Positions 8,509-38,268 of a stretch of 53,871 nucleotides of DNA are shown here, piece by piece (the stretch's first letter is position 1; each line of letters opens with the position of its first letter). This stretch comes from a virus (lineage: Duplodnaviria; Caudoviricetes): IMG/VR virus record IMGVR_UViG_3300043672_000021, positions 1 to 53,871 of that record. One strand, given 5' to 3'. The notes beneath the pieces were generated by a model, which ran no database searches, was not told where the DNA came from, and was given only the letters and a program-made list of their open reading frames with translations. The translations under genes were made by a program, and so were the position numbers.

Positions 8509-8754
8509 ATGAAGGCTGTCTACGCGACCACCACCGCCTCGGTCACCACTCCCGGCGGCGGGCAGGTGCTGGTGAGGACCGGCACGCACTGGCTCGACGA
8601 CGACCCGGTCGTGCGCGAGCACCCGGAGCTGTTCAGCGACGACCCGCGCTACGGCGTCAGCTACAGCGTTCGCCCGGCCAGCTTCGACGAGGCGCCGGTC
8701 GAGCAGGCCACGGCCGGCCCCGGCGAGAAGCGGGGAGCGGTGCGGCGTGGCTGA
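8509..8754 (+). CDS. Small head-associated protein (putative)
   Basis: GAAGGA RBS; DDPVVREHPELF and VEQATAGPGEKR motifs typical of post-capsid genes in actinophages. Confidence 0.75.
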   Translation: MKAVYATTTASVTTPGGGQVLVRTGTHWLDDDPVVREHPELFSDDPRYGVSYSVRPASFDEAPVEQATAGPGEKRGAVRRG

Positions 8755-10243
8755 ACCGATCGCCGAGCCCGCGCTGGACGACACGGCCGAGGCGGACGCG
8801 GCCGACGCGGTGGTTGTGGCGTACGTCCACTCGAACAACATCACCTACAGCTGGCACCACTCGATGGTGGAGCTGATCGGCTGGGACATGGCCCGCCATG
8901 GCCGGGTGATCCGCGGCGGCTACCTGGCGATGCGCTACGGCACCGACGGGATCAGCCTGGCCCGCAACAAGGCCGCGCTCGACTTCCTGGCCGAGAAGAA
9001 CGCCGACTGGCTGTTCTGGGTCGACACCGACATGGGTTTCGGCCCGGACATCGTCGATCGGCTGATGGAGGCCGCCGACCCGGTGGACCGCCCGATCGTC
9101 GGTGCGCTCGCATTCTCCCAGCGCGAGGAGGTCGACGACGGGATGGGCGGCTGGCGCTGCCGGGCCACCCCCACGATCTTCGACTGGGTCAACACCGGAG
9201 ACCAGATGGGCTTCGGGATCCGCTTCGACTACCCGCCGAACACCCTGACTCAGGTCGGTGGCACCGGCTCGGCGTGCATCCTCATCCACCGCAGCGTCTT
9301 CGAGCGGATCGAGGAGAAGTACGGGCGGGCCTGGTATGACCGGGTGCCGAACACGTCCACCGGTCAGATCCTGTCCGAGGATCTGGCGTTCTGCCTGCGC
9401 GCAGGCACCCTCGGCATCCCGATCTACGTGCACACCGGCGTGAAGACCAGCCACCTCAAGCAACTGTGGCTGGCTGAGGACGACTACTACGGCCAGGTCG
9501 CCCTCACCCAACTGCAGCCCTCGGCGCCGCCGGCGACCGAGGCGACCGCGGTGATCGTGCCGGTGATGCGGCGTCCGCAGAACGCGGCCCCGTTCATGGA
9601 GTCGCTGCGGGCTTCGGGTGCACCACTGGCTGCGGTATACGCCATCTGCGACGGCGATGACCTCCAGACAGCCGACGCGTGGCTGGATGCGGGCGCGAAG
9701 GTCGTCTTCGGCGGCGAGGCCAGGACATTCGCACGCAAGGTGAACGTCGGGTACGCGAGGACCGCCGACCGCACCCAGAACCCCAAGGGCTGGTCGCACG
9801 GCCTGGACGGCGAGCCTGAGCCGTGGCTGTTCCTGGTCGGCGACGATGTCCGGTTCGCGCCGGGCTGGCTGGACCACGCGCAGCACGCCGCCCGCGACGG
9901 CGCGCACGTCATCGGCACCAACGACCTGCACAACCCGAGGGTGGTCGCCGGTGAGCACGCCACGCACTTGATGATCCGCCGCGCGTACGTCGATGAGCGG
10001 GGCGCCAGCTGGGACGGCCCGAAAGTCGTCTGCCATGAGGGCTATGGGCACTGGTTCGTCGATGACGAGCTGGTGACCGTCGCCAAACAGCGCGGCGTCT
10101 GGGCGATGGCCAAGGAGTCGAAGGTCGAGCACCTGCACCCGATGTGGGGCCTGGCCGAGGACGACGAGGTGTACCGGCTCGGGCAGAAGCACGCCGAGGC
10201 GGACCGGGCCCTGTTCGAGGCGAGGCGGGCCGAGCATGCATGA
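8747..10243 (+). CDS. Glycosyltransferase with two GT-A (GT2-like) domains
   Basis: Domain 1: ARN, LFWVDTDMG, LSEDLAFC; domain 2: AVIVPV, KVNVG, LVGDDV, WFVDDE, VEHLHP. Confidence 0.88.
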   Translation: MAEPIAEPALDDTAEADAADAVVVAYVHSNNITYSWHHSMVELIGWDMARHGRVIRGGYLAMRYGTDGISLARNKAALDFLAEKNADWLFWVDTDMGFGPDIVDRLMEAADPVDRPIVGALAFSQREEVDDGMGGWRCRATPTIFDWVNTGDQMGFGIRFDYPPNTLTQVGGTGSACILIHRSVFERIEEKYGRAWYDRVPNTSTGQILSEDLAFCLRAGTLGIPIYVHTGVKTSHLKQLWLAEDDYYGQVALTQLQPSAPPATEATAVIVPVMRRPQNAAPFMESLRASGAPLAAVYAICDGDDLQTADAWLDAGAKVVFGGEARTFARKVNVGYARTADRTQNPKGWSHGLDGEPEPWLFLVGDDVRFAPGWLDHAQHAARDGAHVIGTNDLHNPRVVAGEHATHLMIRRAYVDERGASWDGPKVVCHEGYGHWFVDDELVTVAKQRGVWAMAKESKVEHLHPMWGLAEDDEVYRLGQKHAEADRALFEARRAEHA

Positions 10244-10748
10244 CGCCGCGATGCAGTGGATCGCCAAGCACGCCACCACCGACCCGGTCACCGTCTTGGA
10301 TCTCGGCGGGCGCGACATCAACGGCAACCCCCGCCACCTCTGGCCGAACGCCACCACGTACACCTGCCTGGACATCCGCCCCGGCGAAGGGGTCGACATC
10401 GTGGCCGATGCCGCCGACTGGGACCCGGACGGCCGCCGCTGGGACGTCGTGGTCGCCGCGGAGATCTTCGAGCACACCGCGCGCTGGCCGGCGATCTGCC
10501 GGACCGCGCTGAAGGCCTGCGCGCCGGGCGGCCGGTTCATCGTGACCACCGCCGGCCCCGGCCGGCCCCCGCACTCCGCGGTCGACGGCCTGTTCCGGCT
10601 ACTGCCGGCCGAGCACTACGCGAACGTCCCGGCGGCAGAACTCGAGCGGGTCCTCATCGAGACCGGCTGGAGCTACGTGGTCGTGGATTCACAGCCATCC
10701 CCGGCCGACACCCGGGCAGTAGCAACCAAGGGAGATCAGCATGAGTAA
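10236..10748 (+). CDS. Class I SAM-dependent methyltransferase
   Basis: VLDLGG, LDI, VDIVADA, DVVVAAEIFEH, APGGRFIVT. Confidence 0.88.
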   Translation: MHDAAMQWIAKHATTDPVTVLDLGGRDINGNPRHLWPNATTYTCLDIRPGEGVDIVADAADWDPDGRRWDVVVAAEIFEHTARWPAICRTALKACAPGGRFIVTTAGPGRPPHSAVDGLFRLLPAEHYANVPAAELERVLIETGWSYVVVDSQPSPADTRAVATKGDQHE

Positions 10749-32907: not shown

Positions 32908-33374
32908 AGCGCATCCACGCCCACCGCGAGTCGTCCCACGCCTCGCTCGCCCTGGTGATCCCGGTCGCCGGGTTCGGCGGCCTCATGCTCGCCCTCGGCA
33001 TCGCCACCGGCAGCGCCCGCCGGATCATCGAAGCCCTGCCGCTGTCCGAGCCCGGCCCGAACGGGTGGCCGGTGTTCGTCCTCGGATGCCTGGTCTTCGG
33101 GTGCTGGTGGCAGATGCGCCGGGCCAAGACCCACCCGCACGAGCCAGCCGAGGCCACCGGCCGGGACAACGAGAAGTGGCCGGACGCCGAGCCGCTGGCC
33201 GGGGCCCCGTGGCCGCTCGCCGACGCGGGCAGCCCGTGGTTCGGCACCGCCCCGTTCACCGACCCGGTCCCGGTGCGCCGCACCCACCCGGCCACCCCGC
33301 ACGAAGACCTCATCCCCGACCCTGACCAAGCCCACGCCGGCCTGCTCGCTGACCCCGCAGGGACGGTGTGGTGA
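32904..33374 (+). CDS. Membrane protein (2 TM)
   Basis: GAGG RBS, two hydrophobic segments. Confidence 0.65.
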   Translation: MKRIHAHRESSHASLALVIPVAGFGGLMLALGIATGSARRIIEALPLSEPGPNGWPVFVLGCLVFGCWWQMRRAKTHPHEPAEATGRDNEKWPDAEPLAGAPWPLADAGSPWFGTAPFTDPVPVRRTHPATPHEDLIPDPDQAHAGLLADPAGTVW

Positions 33375-33637
33375 TGAGGGGCTACGCCGAAGCCATCTGC
33401 GGCCAGATCCTGTTCGCCCGGATGGAGAGCAAGCGCCTCGCCTACCTGGCCGAGGACCACAAGGCCGCACTGGCCGAGGACCGGATCTTCAACCAGGCCC
33501 GCGCCGAACAGCACGCCGCCGAGCGGCGCCGCGAGTACACCGCCTACCTCTGCTCGATGGCCGACCACGACTGCGCCTGCCTGGCGCTGGGGTTCGACGA
33601 CTGGGCGCGGGTCACCCGTCTGGCGGTGCGCTCATGA
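33368..33637 (+). CDS. Hypothetical protein
   Basis: Overlap-coupled, high GC3 (ATG 33374 alternative). Confidence 0.6.
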   Translation: MVMRGYAEAICGQILFARMESKRLAYLAEDHKAALAEDRIFNQARAEQHAAERRREYTAYLCSMADHDCACLALGFDDWARVTRLAVRS

Positions 33638-33945
33638 GCGACACCTACCGCATCGAGGTCGCCCACCAACTGCTGACGGACCGGCTCACCGTGGTCATCG
33701 CCGAAGACCACGACGCCGCCCTCATCGAGGACCGGGCCCGCCGGGACGCCGGTGACCTCCGGCGGGCAGCGATGCGCGGCGAGATCAACCGGATGATCGA
33801 GCGGGAACGGTTCGCCGCCCAGATCGCCGCGGTCCGCCCCAAGGACCGCCAAGTGCTCGCGCACCGGGCTGAGGTCGCGTGGCGGGCGATGTACCCGGCG
33901 CTGGCCGAGTTCCGCGACTACCCCACGGTCGGCGGTGCCTCATGA
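33634..33945 (+). CDS. Hypothetical protein
   Basis: ATGA overlaps; ends WRAMYPALAEFRDYPTVGG. Confidence 0.65.
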   Translation: MSDTYRIEVAHQLLTDRLTVVIAEDHDAALIEDRARRDAGDLRRAAMRGEINRMIERERFAAQIAAVRPKDRQVLAHRAEVAWRAMYPALAEFRDYPTVGGAS

Positions 33946-34196
33946 CGCGCCGCCAGTCCCTCGCCCTCGACCCCCAACCGTCCGGACTGCGCCACCACAC
34001 CGCGAACCGGGTGCTGGCCGCCGTCCGCACCGCCCACCACGCCCTCGCCCGACTGGAGGCCGCGATGGTCAAGGCCACCGAACGGTCCGCGGTCCTCCAG
34101 TGGCTGGAGCGAGGGTTCCACCGGATCCTCGACGCGGTCGACCAGCCGGGGCCCTCCGAGGACACCATCGCGATGCAGCCGGAGGTGACCCGGTGA
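33942..34196 (+). CDS. Hypothetical protein
   Basis: ATGA / GTGA overlaps. Confidence 0.6.
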   Translation: MTRRQSLALDPQPSGLRHHTANRVLAAVRTAHHALARLEAAMVKATERSAVLQWLERGFHRILDAVDQPGPSEDTIAMQPEVTR

Positions 34197-34519
34197 TCCG
34201 GACCGCGCTGCGAGCGGCGGCCTGGGTCGCGGCGATCGCGGTCGTCGCCGAGCTGGCCGACCGGATCGAGGAAGCCCACGACCGGACGCAGTCGCTGGCC
34301 GCGCGGATCCGCGACCTGGAGGCCGGCGCCGGCCGGCTGATCGACGCGGCCCGGGCGGACGCGCTCTGCGACCTGGACCGGGCAAAGACCGAGTACGCAC
34401 TGCTGGCCCCGGCCGGGACCACCGAAGCCCAGATCGCGGACGCCCGGGTACGGCAGTGGCGGGCCATGCGCCCCGGGTTCGCCGCGCTGATCGACTACCC
34501 GATCGGAGGCTCCGGATGA
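34193..34519 (+). CDS. Hypothetical protein
   Basis: GGAGG RBS; ends WRAMRPGFAALIDYPIGG. Confidence 0.65.
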   Translation: MIRTALRAAAWVAAIAVVAELADRIEEAHDRTQSLAARIRDLEAGAGRLIDAARADALCDLDRAKTEYALLAPAGTTEAQIADARVRQWRAMRPGFAALIDYPIGGSG

Positions 34520-35145
34520 GCGCCGACCTGGTGACCGAGGCCCTGGCCCGGCTAGAGGCCATCATCGAGCGGGGCCGGAAGTCGTTCCTCGAAGTCGGGG
34601 ACGCGCTCCTGAAGATCCGCAGCGACCGGCTATACCTCGAGACCCACGAGACGTTCGCCGAGTACTGCCAAGACCGGTGGGGGTTCTCGGACTCGCGTGC
34701 CCGGCAGCTCGTCATCTCCGCGACGACCGTTAGCAGGCTAACGGCCAAGGGCTTGCCCGCGCCGGCAAACGAGCGACAGGCCGCCGAGCTGGCCAAGGTT
34801 CCCGAACCGGACCGGGAGCGGGTGTGGAGCGAAACCCTCGCCCGCACCGGTGGAAAGCCCACCGCTGCCGCTGTCCGCGAGGTGGCCGAGCCGAAGCCAG
34901 TCGAGCCGGAGCGGGCCACCGCGCCGGAGCCCGCGCCACAGGAGGCCCCCGAAGACGTCGAGGCGCTGCACACCCGCCTCGACATCGAGGCGGCCCGGCG
35001 GGTCGCCCAGAGCATCGTCTCCGAGTTCCGATCCCAGGCCGTCGCTGTCGTCAGGGGGTCGCGGCTCGGCGAGAAGGGCCTCGTAACCCGCTCGATGGTC
35101 GATGAGCTCCGCACGCTACTCGACCTACTGGAGGGCGAACTGTGA
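34516..35145 (+). CDS. Putative DNA-binding protein (DUF3102-like)
   Basis: FLEVGDALLKIRSDRLY..TFAEYCQDRWGFS, NERQAAEL, PTAAAVRE. Confidence 0.7.
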   Translation: MSADLVTEALARLEAIIERGRKSFLEVGDALLKIRSDRLYLETHETFAEYCQDRWGFSDSRARQLVISATTVSRLTAKGLPAPANERQAAELAKVPEPDRERVWSETLARTGGKPTAAAVREVAEPKPVEPERATAPEPAPQEAPEDVEALHTRLDIEAARRVAQSIVSEFRSQAVAVVRGSRLGEKGLVTRSMVDELRTLLDLLEGEL

Positions 35146-35630
35146 ACAGCGAAGAGGCATACACCTACGCCTGGGAGCACGCCAAGCAGAACCCGGACGG
35201 CAGTCGCGTCGAAACCAGCATCGTGGAACTGCTCGCCGATCACCTGCCGTTCGATGCGGCCAAGGCGAAACTCGGTCGCGCGCAACGGGTTCTCGCCAAC
35301 AGGAAGCGCACCGGGCAGACAGCCCCGGACGGTGTCGTGGTCTTCCCCGGCATGGAGCACTACGCCTACGAACCGCACCGGGTGATCGCCGACGCCGAGG
35401 GCAACCTGATCGAGAACGAGCGCGCGACGGAACGCTTCAAGGACGCCGAGGCCAGCCGAGCCAAGGTCGATTCCTTGAGGGCTGCCGCTCGCGCTGAACG
35501 CGAGCGGAACGAGGCCCAGCACTTCGCTGCCTGGGCGGTCAAGGAAATGGCGAATGGCCGCCACCCGCGCGAGATCGTCTGGGACACCTGCGTGCGCGAG
35601 ACCGGCCTCTGGAAAGACGCATCCCCCTGA
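35142..35630 (+). CDS. Hypothetical protein
   Basis: GGAGG RBS, GTGA overlap. Confidence 0.7.
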   Translation: MNSEEAYTYAWEHAKQNPDGSRVETSIVELLADHLPFDAAKAKLGRAQRVLANRKRTGQTAPDGVVVFPGMEHYAYEPHRVIADAEGNLIENERATERFKDAEASRAKVDSLRAAARAERERNEAQHFAAWAVKEMANGRHPREIVWDTCVRETGLWKDASP

Positions 35631-35684
35631 TCTGGTGGGCGCCGGACCGGCGGTACGACCCCGGGCGGCGCCCACCCACCACCC

Positions 35685-35779
35685 GCTCGCCTAGCTCAGG
35701 AGAGCACCGGTGTTTAGCGGCACCGAAGGGCCTCCATCACACGGAGGTCGTCTGGGTTCGAATCCCGGGGCGGGCACCA
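35685..35779 (+). ncRNA. tRNA-like RNA (non-canonical, type II; possible Leu-UAG-like)
   Basis: Acceptor GCTCGCC/GGCGGGC + ACCA; D stem GCTC/GAGC with 4-nt loop; stem CGGTG/CACCG with 8-nt loop TTTAGCGG; long variable hairpin; T arm CTGGG-TTCGAAT-CCCGG. Confidence 0.8.
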
Positions 35780-35823
35780 CTCGGCCGAGTGATCCACCCA
35801 CTCGCACTCACGAAAGGCACGAC

Positions 35824-36375
35824 ATGCCAAGCACTCTCAGGACGCTCAGGTGGACAGGGATGCTGTTCGCCCTCATTGCCCTGATCGCCGTCATGCTCGC
35901 GAATTCCAACGGGTCCAGGTCGGCCGAGAAGTGGCCGGTGCCGATCCCAGCCCAGCCGGTGGTCATGACGATCCCGATCAACGCGACTGTCGGGTTTCAC
36001 AACACGACGTTTGTCACGCCATCGGTGAGCGGCCGGAAGGCGACCGTCTACGTCCGGTACGAGATCGTCCAGGGCCCCTGCCTCCGGATCGCGGAAATTG
36101 ACCGCGGCACCAATATCGCGTACCTGGCGAACGCGGTCCGGTTGGACCTGGAGACCAGCGAGGACTACTACGACGAAATCAGCGAGTCCGTATACCCGTT
36201 CGGCAACAGCTCGGTATCGTTGGACGACGTGCCGTCCTCGTTCCACATCCTGTACCCCGGTGGCTCGTTCGGGTGCTTCATCAACGCCGACTCCCCGGCG
36301 ATCCGGTGGCGTGAATACGGAATCGGAGCCGGGGCGATCGAAAACCGGTACGACACGTACCGGGCGATCGAGTAA
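35824..36375 (+). CDS. Secreted / membrane-anchored protein
   Basis: GAAAGG RBS; basic N-terminus plus hydrophobic helix; two Cys. Confidence 0.7.
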   Translation: MPSTLRTLRWTGMLFALIALIAVMLANSNGSRSAEKWPVPIPAQPVVMTIPINATVGFHNTTFVTPSVSGRKATVYVRYEIVQGPCLRIAEIDRGTNIAYLANAVRLDLETSEDYYDEISESVYPFGNSSVSLDDVPSSFHILYPGGSFGCFINADSPAIRWREYGIGAGAIENRYDTYRAIE

Positions 36376-36481
36376 CCGCACGTCCCTGCTGAGTGGTGTG
36401 CGGCCGGGACCCCGAGTCTCCGGCCGCACGCCGGGCATCCTCCCACCTCCGAACCTCCACCCCGAAGGAGAACCCTTACCG

Positions 36482-37780
36482 ATGAGCCCACCGACCATGC
36501 CGAAGTACACCGGCACCCTGCTGCCCGAGCACCTCAAGCTCGTGGATCAGGTCCGCGAGCACCGGATGCGCATCGGCCTGTCCACCGACCGCTGCGACCG
36601 ACCCGCCGCCGAGGCCGCCATCCGGCTCGCCTACAAGAAGGCCGGCCTGGCCGAGCCGCCGCTGATGGTGTGGATGGACTCCCCGCTCGGCGGTGCGTTC
36701 GCCGCTGGCGCGATCGCTCAGCTGTTCAAGAAGCTCCCCGCAACGACCGAGGGGGACCAGCTCAGGGACCAGCTCAGGGGCCAGCTCGGGGGCCAGCTCG
36801 GGGACCAGCTCTGGGGCCAGCTCGGGGACCAGCTCTGGGGCCAGCTCGGGGGCCAGCTCGGGGGCCAGCTCGGGGGCCAGCTCAGGGGCCAGCTCGGGGA
36901 CCAGCTCAGGGACCAGCTCGGGGACCAGCTCTGGGGCCAGCTCGGGGGCCAGCTCGGGGACCAGCTCTGGGGCCAGCTCTGGGGCCAGCTCTGGGACCAG
37001 CTCGGGGACCAGCTCTGGGGCCAGCTCGGGGGCCAGCTCGGGGGCCAGCTCGGGGACCAGCTCAGGGGCCAGCTCAGGGGCCAGCTCAGGGGCCAGCTCA
37101 GGGGCCAGCTCGACTTCGGACAGTTCCTCGACCCCTGGTACGAGGCGTACTGGCTCGGGATCTATACCGCAGCGCTGCCCGCCGCCGGGCTGCCGGCCGA
37201 TGAGCGGTTCGACGCCCTGACGTCCGCGATCGACAACACCGCCTGGTGGTGGCCGATGCGCGGCGCGGTCATCATGACCGACCGGCCCACCGCCCTGCGC
37301 ATGGAAACCGCAGCCGGTCAGACCCGCCTGCACTGCGACACCGGCCCTGCCATCGGGTACGCCGACGGTTACGGGCTCTGGTCCTGGCACGGCACCCGTG
37401 TCCCGCAGGACCTGATCGAGACCGGTTGGGACACCACCCGGATCCTGAAGGAGCCCAACGCCGAGATCCGCCGGTGCGCGATCGAGCGCATGGGTTGGGA
37501 CCGCTTCGTCGTTGACGCCGGACTGAAGCAGGTCGGAGTGGCAGTCGCCGACCCCGGGAATCCCGGCAAGGAGATCGCGCTGTACGACGTCCCCGAGGCG
37601 ATCTTCGGGGATGTCGCCGTCCGAGTCCTGCTCTGCGAGAACGGGACTCCGGAGCGCGATGGCACGGTCCGTCGGTTCGGCCTGACCGTTCCCGAGGACA
37701 TCAACGACCCGGTCACCGCCGCCGCATGGGGGTACGGGCTGACCGGGTCCGAGTATGCCGGCGCGCAGCGCCGCACCTGA
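36482..37780 (+). CDS. DUF6745-type protein with tetrapeptide repeat array
   Basis: GAAGGAG RBS; DRPAAEAAI..AY, WMDSP, WWWP, DRP, LHCDTGPAIGYADG..WHG, NAEIRRCAIE, AAAW. Confidence 0.85.
   Translation: MSPPTMPKYTGTLLPEHLKLVDQVREHRMRIGLSTDRCDRPAAEAAIRLAYKKAGLAEPPLMVWMDSPLGGAFAAGAIAQLFKKLPATTEGDQLRDQLRGQLGGQLGDQLWGQLGDQLWGQLGGQLGGQLGGQLRGQLGDQLRDQLGDQLWGQLGGQLGDQLWGQLWGQLWDQLGDQLWGQLGGQLGGQLGDQLRGQLRGQLRGQLRGQLDFGQFLDPWYEAYWLGIYTAALPAAGLPADERFDALTSAIDNTAWWWPMRGAVIMTDRPTALRMETAAGQTRLHCDTGPAIGYADGYGLWSWHGTRVPQDLIETGWDTTRILKEPNAEIRRCAIERMGWDRFVVDAGLKQVGVAVADPGNPGKEIALYDVPEAIFGDVAVRVLLCENGTPERDGTVRRFGLTVPEDINDPVTAAAWGYGLTGSEYAGAQRRT
36752..37111 (+). repeat. 30 x 12-bp coding tandem repeat (D GG G R C CAG CTC)
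   Basis: Encodes [G/R/W][G/D]QL x30; only unit positions 1 and 5 vary. Confidence 0.97.
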
Positions 37781-37833
37781 GATCGCACCACTTCCGAATC
37801 AACCCGCACCGCAATCAGAAGGAGCAACCCAGA

Positions 37834-38268
37834 ATGAGCACCCGAACCCTCGGCGCACTGGCCACCCGGCACGGCGTCGACCTCCTCGACCATCTGGACC
37901 AGCAGCTGCAGATCCCGGTGCTGTCCGGGATTCAGTTCCAGGGCGACGTCGCCGTCGTCCCCTGCCCGACCCTGGGCGACCTCATCCCGGGACTGCCCGC
38001 AGGGGAGCCGGTTCCGGCCGCTGGGGTCGCTGTAGTCCGTGGGGAGAACGGCGGCCACACGCACCTGCTGGTCGCGGACGGCCCGGTCTCCTGGGCGGCT
38101 GGGCGTGGCTCCGGCGGCAACCTCACCCTCGGCACGGTCACCGTCCCCGGCGGTGCGATCGCCTACCTGCTGCACCCCGAGCACGGCGGCAACGCTCTGG
38201 CTCCGGGCTCGTACGAGCTGCGCCGCCAGCGCGAGCAGCGCGAGGAGATCGCGCTCGTCGCCGACTGA
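37834..38268 (+). CDS. Conserved partner of DUF6745 protein (His-rich)
   Basis: GAAGGAG RBS; QGDV, GHTH, HPEH, PGSYELRRQRE. Confidence 0.85.
   Translation: MSTRTLGALATRHGVDLLDHLDQQLQIPVLSGIQFQGDVAVVPCPTLGDLIPGLPAGEPVPAAGVAVVRGENGGHTHLLVADGPVSWAAGRGSGGNLTLGTVTVPGGAIAYLLHPEHGGNALAPGSYELRRQREQREEIALVAD

What the first reader, a model, noticed from the sequence alone, without database searches (positions are those of the whole stretch)
35685..35779. Non-canonical tRNA-like RNA: 8-nt anticodon loop, 4-nt D-loop, long variable arm, encoded CCA
Seen: a 7-bp acceptor stem with U3-G70, discriminator A, CCA, a perfect TTCGAAT T-loop and TAGCTC D-arm start. But the D-loop is only AGGA, there is an extra base before the anticodon stem, the loop is TTTAGCGG (8 nt) and the variable region is 26 nt. 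All stems still pair, which argues for selection rather than decay. Known: 8-nt loops characterise +1 frameshift-suppressor tRNAs, and phage tRNAs can offset anticodon nucleases. Inference: a recoding tRNA, a nuclease/synthetase decoy, or an RNase P processing signal in the early transcript. Its co-occurrence with two +1-shifted repressors is intriguing, but the centred anticodon (UAG/UAGC) does not match those sites.
Basis: partly seen in the sequence, partly recalled or inferred. Interest (0 to 1): 0.75.

Follow-up and report, generated by a model that had tools for sequence, protein, structure and literature searches.

The report
Valine tRNA gene with inserted hairpin
The odd phage tRNA is a valine tRNA gene that has gained an extra 24-base hairpin just ahead of its real anticodon arm, so it is very unlikely to be the frameshift-reading tRNA it looked like, and whether it still works as a tRNA is unknown.

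Summary
ARAGORN calls 35685-35779 (+) as tRNA-??? with anticodon 'tagc', Rfam's tRNA model scores it 34.5 bits against a cut-off of 29, and every stem pairs. The arms were mis-assigned, though. The '8-nt anticodon loop' belongs to a 24-nt hairpin (35707-35730) inserted between position 26 and the anticodon stem. Evidence: an anticodon-blind pattern search found 17 cellular genes, all tRNA-Val(CAC). Removing the 24 nt in silico gives a 71-nt tRNA-Val(cac) that is 62/71 identical to them. A Val-specific covariance model aligns the second hairpin as the anticodon arm. No GCUA or CUAN site joins two coding frames. No homologue carrying the insertion was found, 18 related phage records have no tRNA, and the record has no integrase. 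Function is open. By junction topology the inserted hairpin, not the Val arm, should stack under the D arm. My best guess is therefore a processed, non-decoding tRNA-like RNA; a dead gene or a still-working Val tRNA are the main rivals. This is a single orphan sequence with no RNA data.

The parts
35685..35779 (+). whole tRNA-like gene, 95 nt, five helices, encoded CCA
   Evidence: ARAGORN; RF00005 34.5 bits; fold z = -3.65; Val-specific model R1 30.4 bits, E about 1e-7, over 35688-35778
35685..35691 (+). acceptor stem 5' strand GCUCGCC; pairs with 35769-35775, U3-G70
   Evidence: the same 7-mer is the acceptor strand of 17 cellular tRNA-Val(CAC) genes, where the pattern required it
35694..35705 (+). 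D arm: 4-bp stem GCUC/GAGC with a 4-nt loop AGGA
   Evidence: pair probability 1.0. Actinobacterial Val(CAC) genes have a 7- or 9-nt D loop; the cellular look-alikes have 9 nt
35707..35730 (+). 24-nt insertion after position 26 (boundary ambiguous by 2 nt, CC). It contains hairpin X: stem CGGUG/CACCG (35708-35712 / 35721-35725) and loop UUUAGCGG
   Evidence: alignment to cellular tRNA-Val(CAC); deleting it gives a 71-nt tRNA-Val(cac) call; unique in the window at up to 3 mismatches; no likeness to anticodon arms beyond chance
35731..35747 (+). hairpin Y, the ancestral Val anticodon arm: CCUCC-AUCACAC-GGAGG with U33, anticodon CAC at 35738-35740, A37
   Evidence: 14/17 identical to actinobacterial and other Val(CAC) anticodon arms, differing from the common actinobacterial arm at position 32 and by a compensatory swap of pair 31:39; aligned as the anticodon arm by model R1
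35748..35751 (+). 4-nt variable loop UCGU; the first two bases can instead extend hairpin Y to 7 bp
35752..35768 (+). T arm CUGGG-UUCGAAU-CCCGG
35769..35779 (+). acceptor 3' strand GGCGGGC, discriminator A, CCA
35634..35676 (+). very stable GC-rich hairpin ending 8 nt before the gene, with no T tract; context, not part of the RNA
   Evidence: -36.9 kcal/mol, z = -3.05

Best explanation
The gene descends from a tRNA-Val(CAC). A 24-nt hairpin (35707-35730) now sits between position 26 and the anticodon stem, the D loop is cut to AGGA, and the variable loop is 4 nt. I put about 0.9 on this anatomy. How it most likely works is inference. The gene lies between two genes on the same strand with no promoter-like or + strand terminator-like signal nearby, so it is probably transcribed with them. 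Its acceptor/T half, discriminator A and encoded CCA are intact, so RNase P and the 3'-end enzymes should cut it out as a stable 95-nt RNA. That would leave the upstream message ending in the strong hairpin at 35634-35676. The helices leave the junction in the order acceptor, D, X, Y, T, the same topology as a class II tRNA. The D stem is joined to hairpin X by 2 nt and is not joined directly to hairpin Y. X should therefore stack under the D arm, and the Val anticodon arm should stick out like a variable arm. In that fold the CAC anticodon is in the wrong place for ValRS and for the ribosome, and the loop at the tip (UUUAGCGG, predicted half closed) is not anticodon-like. My best guess is a processed, non-decoding tRNA-like RNA that acts as a transcript processing point and possibly as a decoy for tRNA-binding factors. 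It is not a frameshift suppressor.
For: Origin. An anticodon-blind pattern (acceptor 5' strand plus D-arm start, any 30-60 nt, T loop) found 17 metagenome loci, and all 17 are 77-nt tRNA-Val(cac) genes, lying in DNA of 41-58% GC. Alignment places the extra 24 nt after A26. With the 24 nt removed in silico, the RNA is 62/71 identical to those genes, score 44 against 28 or less for any other isoacceptor; removing hairpin Y instead gives at best 26. ARAGORN calls the exact deletion a 71-nt tRNA-Val(cac), and 139 of 595 deletion variants give Val(cac). Hairpin Y is 14/17 identical to Val(CAC) anticodon arms, a level reached by 3 of 300 random hairpins. A covariance model built from 21 Actinomycetes Val(CAC) genes matches at 30.4 bits and aligns Y as the anticodon arm. 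Rfam's valylatable tymovirus TLS model also aligned its anticodon arm to Y, though below threshold at 21.6 bits. Against decoding through X: X matches anticodon arms at only 11/17, near the null median of about 10; U-G pairs are predicted to close its loop; and no quadruplet target site exists. Context: no sigma-70-like promoter and no + strand terminator in 35000-36300, and a -36.9 kcal/mol hairpin lies 8 nt upstream. The stacking argument is inference from the established architecture of class I and class II tRNAs, not a computed result.
Against: The sequence is a single orphan. No homologue with the insertion was found, so there is no covariation and no evidence of selection on hairpin X. 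There are no RNA data, so transcription, processing and the 3D fold are all untested. The Val anticodon loop is fully canonical (U33, CAC, A37) and A73 is kept. That fits a tRNA that still works or was disrupted only recently better than one long relieved of decoding. E. coli translation accepts even a tRNA without a D arm (PMC11551756, abstract and passages read), so tolerance for odd cores may be wider than my steric argument assumes. Ordinary phage tRNA genes share the same intergenic setting, so the context does not single out a processing role.
Confidence: 0.42

Rival explanations
1. Dead gene: a tRNA-Val(CAC) gene that the phage picked up was recently disrupted by a 24-nt quasi-palindromic insertion and a D-loop deletion. 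It has no function and has not yet decayed.
For: 0 of 18 related phage records have any tRNA (the same search finds this gene). The syntenic relative L037 has no tRNA after the homologous upstream gene. No homologue carries the insertion. The insertion starts inside an 8-nt palindrome, CACCGGTG (read), a kind of sequence that template-switch errors can turn into hairpins without selection (recalled general knowledge). GUG is already a common codon, 448 of 1,122 Val codons in rough gene calls, so there is no rare-codon need.
Against: All 28 base pairs of the five helices are intact, and the conserved tRNA bases that remain (U8, A14, GG, A21, U33, the T loop, CCA) are all present. That is not what a long-decayed copy looks like, though a very recent event would look the same.
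Confidence: 0.25
2. A working tRNA-Val(CAC) with a tolerated extra arm: hairpin X swings out, hairpin Y stacks under the D arm, ValRS charges the RNA, and it reads GUG. It might then supply Val-tRNA when a host defence nuclease depletes the host's copy.
For: The ValRS identity elements I know of (A73, A35, C36; recalled) are present, and the anticodon loop matches host Val(CAC) loops at 6 of 7 positions. Phage tRNAs are proposed to escape anticodon nucleases through sequence changes (PMC10264068, passages read). [quoted passage not shown]
Against: The only strand that normally runs straight from the D stem into the anticodon stem is interrupted by 24 nt, so the D and Y helices are no longer neighbours at the junction. 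The D loop lacks position 15 and the G20 region. From recall, positions 25-26 contact 23S rRNA helix 69 on the ribosome, which is exactly where the hairpin emerges. The published escape route is point changes in the loop, not a 24-nt arm.
Confidence: 0.15
3. One reading: the RNA folds like a class II tRNA with the inserted hairpin as the working anticodon arm. It reads a quadruplet (GCUA) or CUA with its 8-nt loop and is charged by a synthetase that ignores the anticodon, or with help from the old Val arm acting as a pseudo-anticodon handle.
For: The junction topology equals that of class II tRNAs. ARAGORN and the generic Rfam model parse it this way. The loop has U at the second position and a purine after UAGC. 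An engineered pseudo-anticodon arm in the variable-arm position can raise charging (PMC7590224, sections 2.6 and 3 read). CTA is rare, 31 of 1,213 Leu codons.
Against: 0 of 6 GCTA and 0 of 41 CTAN candidate sites join two coding-like frames, and the two proposed frameshift sites lack these motifs. Only 7 in-frame GCT-A contexts exist. X resembles no anticodon arm. Its loop is predicted to be partly closed. The stem is one pair or one base too long. The RNA body is class I-like: host class II tRNAs score 24-46 against 63-66 for class I.
Confidence: 0.07
4. An integration-related element: an attP overlapping a tRNA-like sequence, or the spare tRNA of 'tRNA-dependent lysogeny'.
For: Actinophages commonly integrate into tRNA or tmRNA genes. 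Relative L037 carries a tmRNA-like fragment. tRNA-dependent lysogeny pairs one phage tRNA with an integrase (PMC10865867, abstract read).
Against: No tyrosine or serine recombinase appears in any frame of the 96%-complete record or among 69 ORFs scanned against Pfam. A complete cloverleaf with its own matching acceptor strands is more than an attP core needs.
Confidence: 0.03

Closest known systems
Bacterial tRNA-Val(CAC), class I
   Same: Acceptor 5' strand, positions 8-13, D-stem 3' strand and A26, the anticodon arm (14/17), T loop, A73 and CCA. Overall 62/71 identical to cellular genes once the 24 nt are set aside.
   Different: A 24-nt hairpin between position 26 and position 27; a D loop of 4 nt instead of 7-9; a variable loop of 4 nt instead of 5; U3-G70 instead of U3-A70.
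Class II tRNAs (Leu, Ser, Tyr) and tRNA-Sec / allo-tRNAs
   Same: The same five-helix junction order; a long arm between the second and fourth helices; a 4-nt D loop as in tRNA-Sec (PMC7609411, passages read).
   Different: The acceptor/T split is 7/5, not 8/5, 9/4, 8/4 or 9/3. The D stem is 4 bp, not 6. The body is class I-like by sequence. The 'variable arm' is a former anticodon arm.
+1 frameshift-suppressor tRNAs with 8-nt anticodon loops (sufD, sufB2 type; recalled, no paper read here)
   Same: An 8-nt loop in the hairpin that follows the D arm.
   Different: In those tRNAs a single base is added to an otherwise normal anticodon loop. Here the whole hairpin is extra sequence, a normal 7-nt Val anticodon loop sits next to it, and no target sites were found.
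Engineered tRNAs with a pseudo-anticodon arm in the variable-arm position (Mukai 2020, PMC7590224)
   Same: An anticodon-arm look-alike placed where a variable arm sits, on a tRNA whose tip carries a different loop.
   Different: Those are designed on allo-tRNA chassis and need fused synthetase domains. This one is natural, and nothing shows that it is charged.
Phage tRNAs altered to escape host anticodon nucleases (van den Berg et al. 2023, PMC10264068)
   Same: A phage-borne tRNA that differs from host copies.
   Different: The published changes are point changes within the anticodon loop, not an added arm.
tRNA-derived genes with extra hairpins noted earlier in this scan (e1-5897904, e1-6057903, e1-5971532, e1-6034358; unchecked AI notes)
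   Same: Uncultured phages, several of them actinophages, carrying a single tRNA-framed gene with an added hairpin and no relatives.
   Different: Those notes report D-loop or anticodon-loop insertions and loss of a usable anticodon. Here the anticodon arm is intact and the hairpin sits between position 26 and position 27.

Membership tests
tRNA (Rfam RF00005) | Score at or above the curated cut-off for the cloverleaf model | tested here: met
   34.5 bits against 29; the whole-window gathering run with default filters missed it
tRNA (functional) | The hairpin directly after the D arm has a 5-bp stem and a 7-nt loop | tested here: not met
   An extra C, a 5-bp stem and an 8-nt loop
tRNA (functional) | Aminoacylation and decoding | not testable with these tools
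   No RNA run is listed; bench assays are needed
tRNA-Val(CAC) | Sequence kinship to Val(CAC) genes over other isoacceptors | tested here: met
   17 of 17 blind-pattern hits are Val(cac); 62/71 identity, score 44 against 28 or less; model R1 30.4 bits
tRNA-Val(CAC) | A 7-nt loop with U33, anticodon CAC (A35, C36) and a purine at 37, plus discriminator A73 | tested here: met
   Hairpin Y at 35731-35747 and A at 35776. That these are ValRS identity elements is recalled, not looked up.
tRNA-Val(CAC) | The anticodon stem follows position 26 directly | tested here: not met
   24 nt intervene
Class II tRNA (Leu/Ser/Tyr) | A class II body: sequence likeness to class II tRNAs and a large D loop | tested here: not met
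   Class II tRNAs of genome G019 score 24-46 against 63-66 for class I; the D loop is 4 nt
+1 frameshift-suppressor tRNA | The 8-nt loop arises by a 1-nt addition to a recognisable anticodon arm | tested here: not met
   With any one loop base removed, X matches anticodon arms at best 11/17, within the random range
+1 frameshift-suppressor tRNA | Genes that need a +1 shift at the cognate quadruplet | tested here: not met
   0 of 6 GCTA and 0 of 41 CTAN sites have coding-like GC3 on both sides; sites 30632 and 31605 lack the motifs
tRNA-Sec / allo-tRNA | Acceptor/T split of 8/5, 9/4, 8/4 or 9/3 | tested here: not met
   The split is 7/5; definition from PMC5389517 (abstract start in the search listing) and PMC7609411 (passages)
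Tymovirus-type valylatable tRNA-like structure (RF00233) | Score at or above the gathering cut-off | tested here: not met
   21.6 bits against 40, E = 0.024
tRNA-dependent lysogeny / attP | A phage integrase | tested here: not met
   PF00589 and PF00239: 0 matches in six frames
tRNA gene with a removable intron (bulge-helix-bulge or group I) | A splice motif at both ends of the 24 nt | not tested
   No motif search was run. 24 nt is far too short for a group I intron, and bacteria are not known to have the archaeal splicing endonuclease (recalled).

The most novel reading that the evidence does not exclude
A natural tRNA remade by insertion. The new hairpin has taken over the anticodon position, and the old valine anticodon arm survives as a side arm that still attracts ValRS (a natural 'pseudo-anticodon'). 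The RNA would then carry valine, or another amino acid, to a codon or quadruplet set by the new loop (UAGC / UAG). That would show one way a class II-like tRNA with a new meaning can arise in a single step.
Probability: 0.06. Interest if true: 0.9.

Novelty: new variant of a known kind. Interest (0 to 1): 0.45.

Why it matters
If the five-arm RNA is made and stable, it would be a natural bacterial-type tRNA with a complete extra arm at the D/anticodon hinge. I did not find that layout in the papers I searched: 'tRNA' + 'extra hairpin' + 'cloverleaf' gave 1 paper, unrelated by title, and 'pseudo-anticodon' + 'tRNA' gave 5, none describing a natural tRNA of this kind by title or abstract start. 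One recent abstract states that all known bacterial tRNAs are canonical cloverleaves (PMC11551756). The RNA would also be a ready-made test of which helix stacks under the D arm when two candidates compete. Earlier unchecked notes of this scan describe other tRNA-framed genes with added hairpins in uncultured phages, so it may belong to a wider, undescribed habit of phages reshaping tRNA genes. There is a practical lesson too: tRNA finders force such genes into the class II template and report a false 'odd anticodon', so calls of unusual anticodon loops next to long variable arms should be checked for a hidden canonical anticodon arm.

Tried and rejected
1. Homologue searches that found nothing useful. 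The 16-nt anticodon-arm string in viral contigs gave 5 hits, all in unrelated DNA with no tRNA; I read two and both look coding. The 15-nt D-arm string gave 29 hits, none a tRNA of this kind. The 17-nt hairpin-Y string gave 3 hits, none a tRNA. The anticodon-blind pattern gave 0 hits in viral contigs. A stricter acceptor/D/T pattern gave 0 hits in genome contigs. Sensitive blastn against 50,697 phage records gave only 5 weak T-arm matches, E 0.3-0.9, and megablast of 33000-38000 gave no match.
2. Synteny. The flanking genes each have one viral relative. L007 is cut off before the position, and L037 lacks a tRNA there.
3. My first Val pattern had the wrong spacing and found nothing; corrected.
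4. Global alignment to the 62 tRNAs of one Allokutzneria genome could not name the isotype: Arg 66.0, Phe 65.4, Val 63.3.
5. An alternative fold with the hairpin inside a giant D loop is about 13 kcal/mol worse, with pair probability 0.
6. Sequencing runs: no RNA holder is listed, and only one DNA run was found, probably the source sample.
7. This scan's earlier findings: nothing by place or by sequence.
8. Rare-codon supply is rejected for Val, because GUG is common.
9. My first literature query was too loose and returned only general phage papers; one search also gave nothing on point.
10. No structure prediction of the RNA was possible with these tools, and complex prediction was not used.

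Full report
WHAT IS THERE. The window is a 53,871-bp virus record, 96% complete by CheckV and about 69% G+C. Terminase, portal, prohead protease, capsid, tail tube, lysis genes, WhiB, an exonuclease, RusA and a helicase mark it as a siphovirus of an actinobacterial-type host. Its terminase is at most about 35% identical to cultured actinophages. Among prophage-like relatives it is 40-47% identical to stretches in Allokutzneria, Mycobacterium, Microbacterium and some metagenome-assembled genomes. The finding lies in a 193-nt gap between two + strand genes: 35142-35630, and a small gene that starts at ATG 35824.

ARAGORN's only call in the window is 35685-35779 (+), 'tRNA-???', anticodon (tagc). 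Rfam's tRNA model gives 34.5 bits against a cut-off of 29; the whole-window gathering run missed it. The minimum-energy fold has five helices, -47.7 kcal/mol, z = -3.65, and every helix has a pair probability of at least 0.84. A contig assembled independently from the one public run that holds this DNA is identical over 35500-36000. That run is probably the source sample.

THE ARMS WERE MIS-ASSIGNED. That made me notice that this hairpin, CCUCC-AUCACAC-GGAGG, is a 5-bp stem with a 7-nt loop, U at the position-33 place, CAC in the middle and A after it: a textbook valine anticodon arm. I wrote the idea down and then tested it five ways.

(a) Blind pattern search. I scanned metagenome contigs with a pattern that fixes only the acceptor 5' strand with the D-arm start and the T loop, and leaves 30-60 free bases between. 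It found 17 loci. All 17 matched genes are 77-nt tRNA-Val(cac), and 16 of the 17 lie next to a tRNA-Val(gac). Their flanks range from 41 to 58% G+C, so they come from several organisms and not from the phage's host lineage. The tRNA genes themselves are nearly identical to one another, so they count as few independent witnesses.

(b) Alignment. It shows the same GAGC-A before, and a near-identical anticodon arm after, an extra 24 nt in the phage.

(c) In-silico deletion. With 35707-35730 removed, the RNA is 62/71 identical to those genes (score 44; next isoacceptor 28). Removing the other hairpin gives at best 26. ARAGORN calls the exact deletion a 71-nt tRNA-Val(cac). Of 595 deletion variants, 139 give Val(cac), 121 keep '???(tagc)' and 184 give no call.

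(d) Anticodon-arm comparison. Against 82 distinct anticodon arms from fetched genomes (unpublished genomes left out), hairpin Y is best matched by Val(CAC) arms at 14/17, a level that 3 of 300 random hairpins reach. Hairpin X reaches only 11/17 even when any one loop base is dropped, near the random median of about 10. Compared with the common actinobacterial arm CCUCG-U-UCACAC-CGAGG, Y differs at position 32 and by a compensatory swap of the closing pair. The arm set is enriched for Val(CAC) because of how it was fetched. One search also included five loci from genomes flagged as unpublished, and I do not rely on it.

(e) Val-specific model. A covariance model built only from 21 Actinomycetes tRNA-Val(CAC) genes matches 35688-35778 at 30.4 bits (E about 1e-7, rough calibration). 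It aligns Y to the anticodon arm and treats the first hairpin as inserted bases.

The generic Rfam model prefers the other parse, because long insertions are cheap only in its variable region. That parse therefore says nothing about biology. An alternative fold that would put the hairpin inside a giant D loop is about 13 kcal/mol worse.

SO THE ANATOMY IS: acceptor stem (U3-G70), U8 A9, D stem GCUC/GAGC with a 4-nt loop AGGA, A26, a 24-nt insertion forming hairpin X, the Val anticodon arm, a 4-nt variable loop UCGU, a standard T arm, A73 and CCA. Actinobacterial Val(CAC) genes have 7-nt D loops (9 nt in two of the 21), so the D loop has lost about three bases relative to them.

THE FRAMESHIFT IDEA. 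I listed every GCTA, CTAN and GCTN on both strands where at least 60 open codons precede the site, at least 60 open codons follow it in the +1 frame, and the zero frame closes within 40 codons. None of the 6 GCTA and none of the 41 CTAN sites has coding-like third-position G+C (0.8 or more) on both sides. In my rough gene calls CTA is rare (31 of 1,213 Leu codons) and in-frame GCT-A occurs 7 times. These gene calls come from a simple GC3 heuristic and are approximate.

NO RELATIVES, NO PARTNER GENES. None of 18 related viral records (terminase 38-63% identical, three of them at least 90% complete) has any tRNA at E up to 0.01, while the same search recovers this gene. The one syntenic relative, L037, has a small ORF in this place instead. 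All string and blastn searches for the RNA itself failed. The record has no tyrosine or serine recombinase in any frame. That removes the attP and 'tRNA-dependent lysogeny' readings (PMC10865867, abstract read), unless the missing ~4% of the genome holds one.

HOW IT MOST LIKELY WORKS (inference). No promoter-like site and no + strand terminator-like site lie within 35000-36300. A -36.9 kcal/mol hairpin ends 8 nt upstream. The gene is thus probably transcribed with its neighbours. It keeps everything that bacterial RNase P and the 3'-end enzymes are known to read: the acceptor/T helix, the discriminator and CCA (established knowledge, recalled).

The harder question is which hairpin occupies the anticodon position. 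The helices leave the junction in the order acceptor, D, X, Y, T, exactly as in class II tRNAs, where the third helix stacks under the D stem and the fourth sticks out. In a normal tRNA the D and anticodon stems are held in line by the one strand that runs through position 26. Here that strand runs into X after 2 nt and reaches Y only after 24 nt. I therefore expect X under the D arm and the Val arm displaced sideways, out of reach for ValRS and the ribosome. X's own loop is not anticodon-like and is predicted to be partly closed.

My odds are:
- 0.42: a processed, non-decoding tRNA-like RNA, acting as a transcript punctuation point and perhaps a decoy.
- 0.25: a dead, recently disrupted gene.
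- 0.15: a still-working Val tRNA with a tolerated arm.
- 0.07: a class II-like recoder.
- 0.03: an integration-related element.

The intact Val loop and the wide tolerance of bacterial translation (PMC11551756) are the main reasons not to go higher on the first.

COMPARISON WITH WHAT IS KNOWN. The review of non-canonical tRNAs (PMC7609411, passages read) lists tRNA-Sec, allo-tRNAs, tRNA-Pyl and soil allo-tRNA-like sequences with an extra loop between the acceptor and D stems. The passages I read mention no arm between the D and anticodon stems. Mukai (PMC7590224, sections 2.6 and 3 read) engineered an anticodon-arm look-alike into the variable-arm position; the present RNA has that layout by natural descent. 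Phage tRNAs that dodge anticodon nucleases do so by loop point changes (PMC10264068, passages read). Earlier unchecked notes of this scan describe other uncultured-phage genes built on tRNA frames with added hairpins. They suggest a recurring theme, but I did not test them.

VERDICT. Frameshift suppression is unsupported. Function is unresolved for lack of relatives and RNA data. It is a new variant of a known kind, of moderate interest.

Noticed in passing
L037:960-1026 (+): A related 68-kb viral contig carries a tmRNA 3'-end-like fragment (RF00023 26 bits, E = 2.7e-7). It lies about 3 kb upstream of the homologue of window gene 35142-35630, and an excisionase-like small ORF (judged by eye) follows that homologue. 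It looks like an attP for integration into the host tmRNA gene.
   Followed up: no
window 35634-35676: A very stable GC-rich hairpin (-36.9 kcal/mol, z = -3.05) sits between the stop of the upstream gene and the tRNA-like gene, with no T tract. It may be a factor-independent terminator of the actinobacterial kind or a 3'-end protector.
   Followed up: partly
window 34456-35145: By my rough gene calls, this proline-rich 229-aa ORF holds 6 of the phage's 31 in-frame CTA codons. It may be mis-framed or of foreign origin.
   Followed up: no
The phage may be lytic, may use another maintenance mode, or may carry the gene in the missing ~4%.
   Followed up: partly
L010:293-345: In an unrelated viral contig, the same 15-nt minimal D-arm string lies in the 53-nt spacer between a tRNA-Gln and a tRNA-Phe gene. 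It may be a tRNA remnant.
   Followed up: no
window 8747-10748: A glycosyltransferase-like gene (phrog_34859) and a methyltransferase (PF13489) sit inside the head module, just after the capsid gene.
   Followed up: no
L037:6575-6675 (-): ARAGORN calls a 101-nt 'tRNA-Cys(aca)' that Rfam does not support (no RF00005 hit at E up to 0.1). It is probably a false call.
   Followed up: partly
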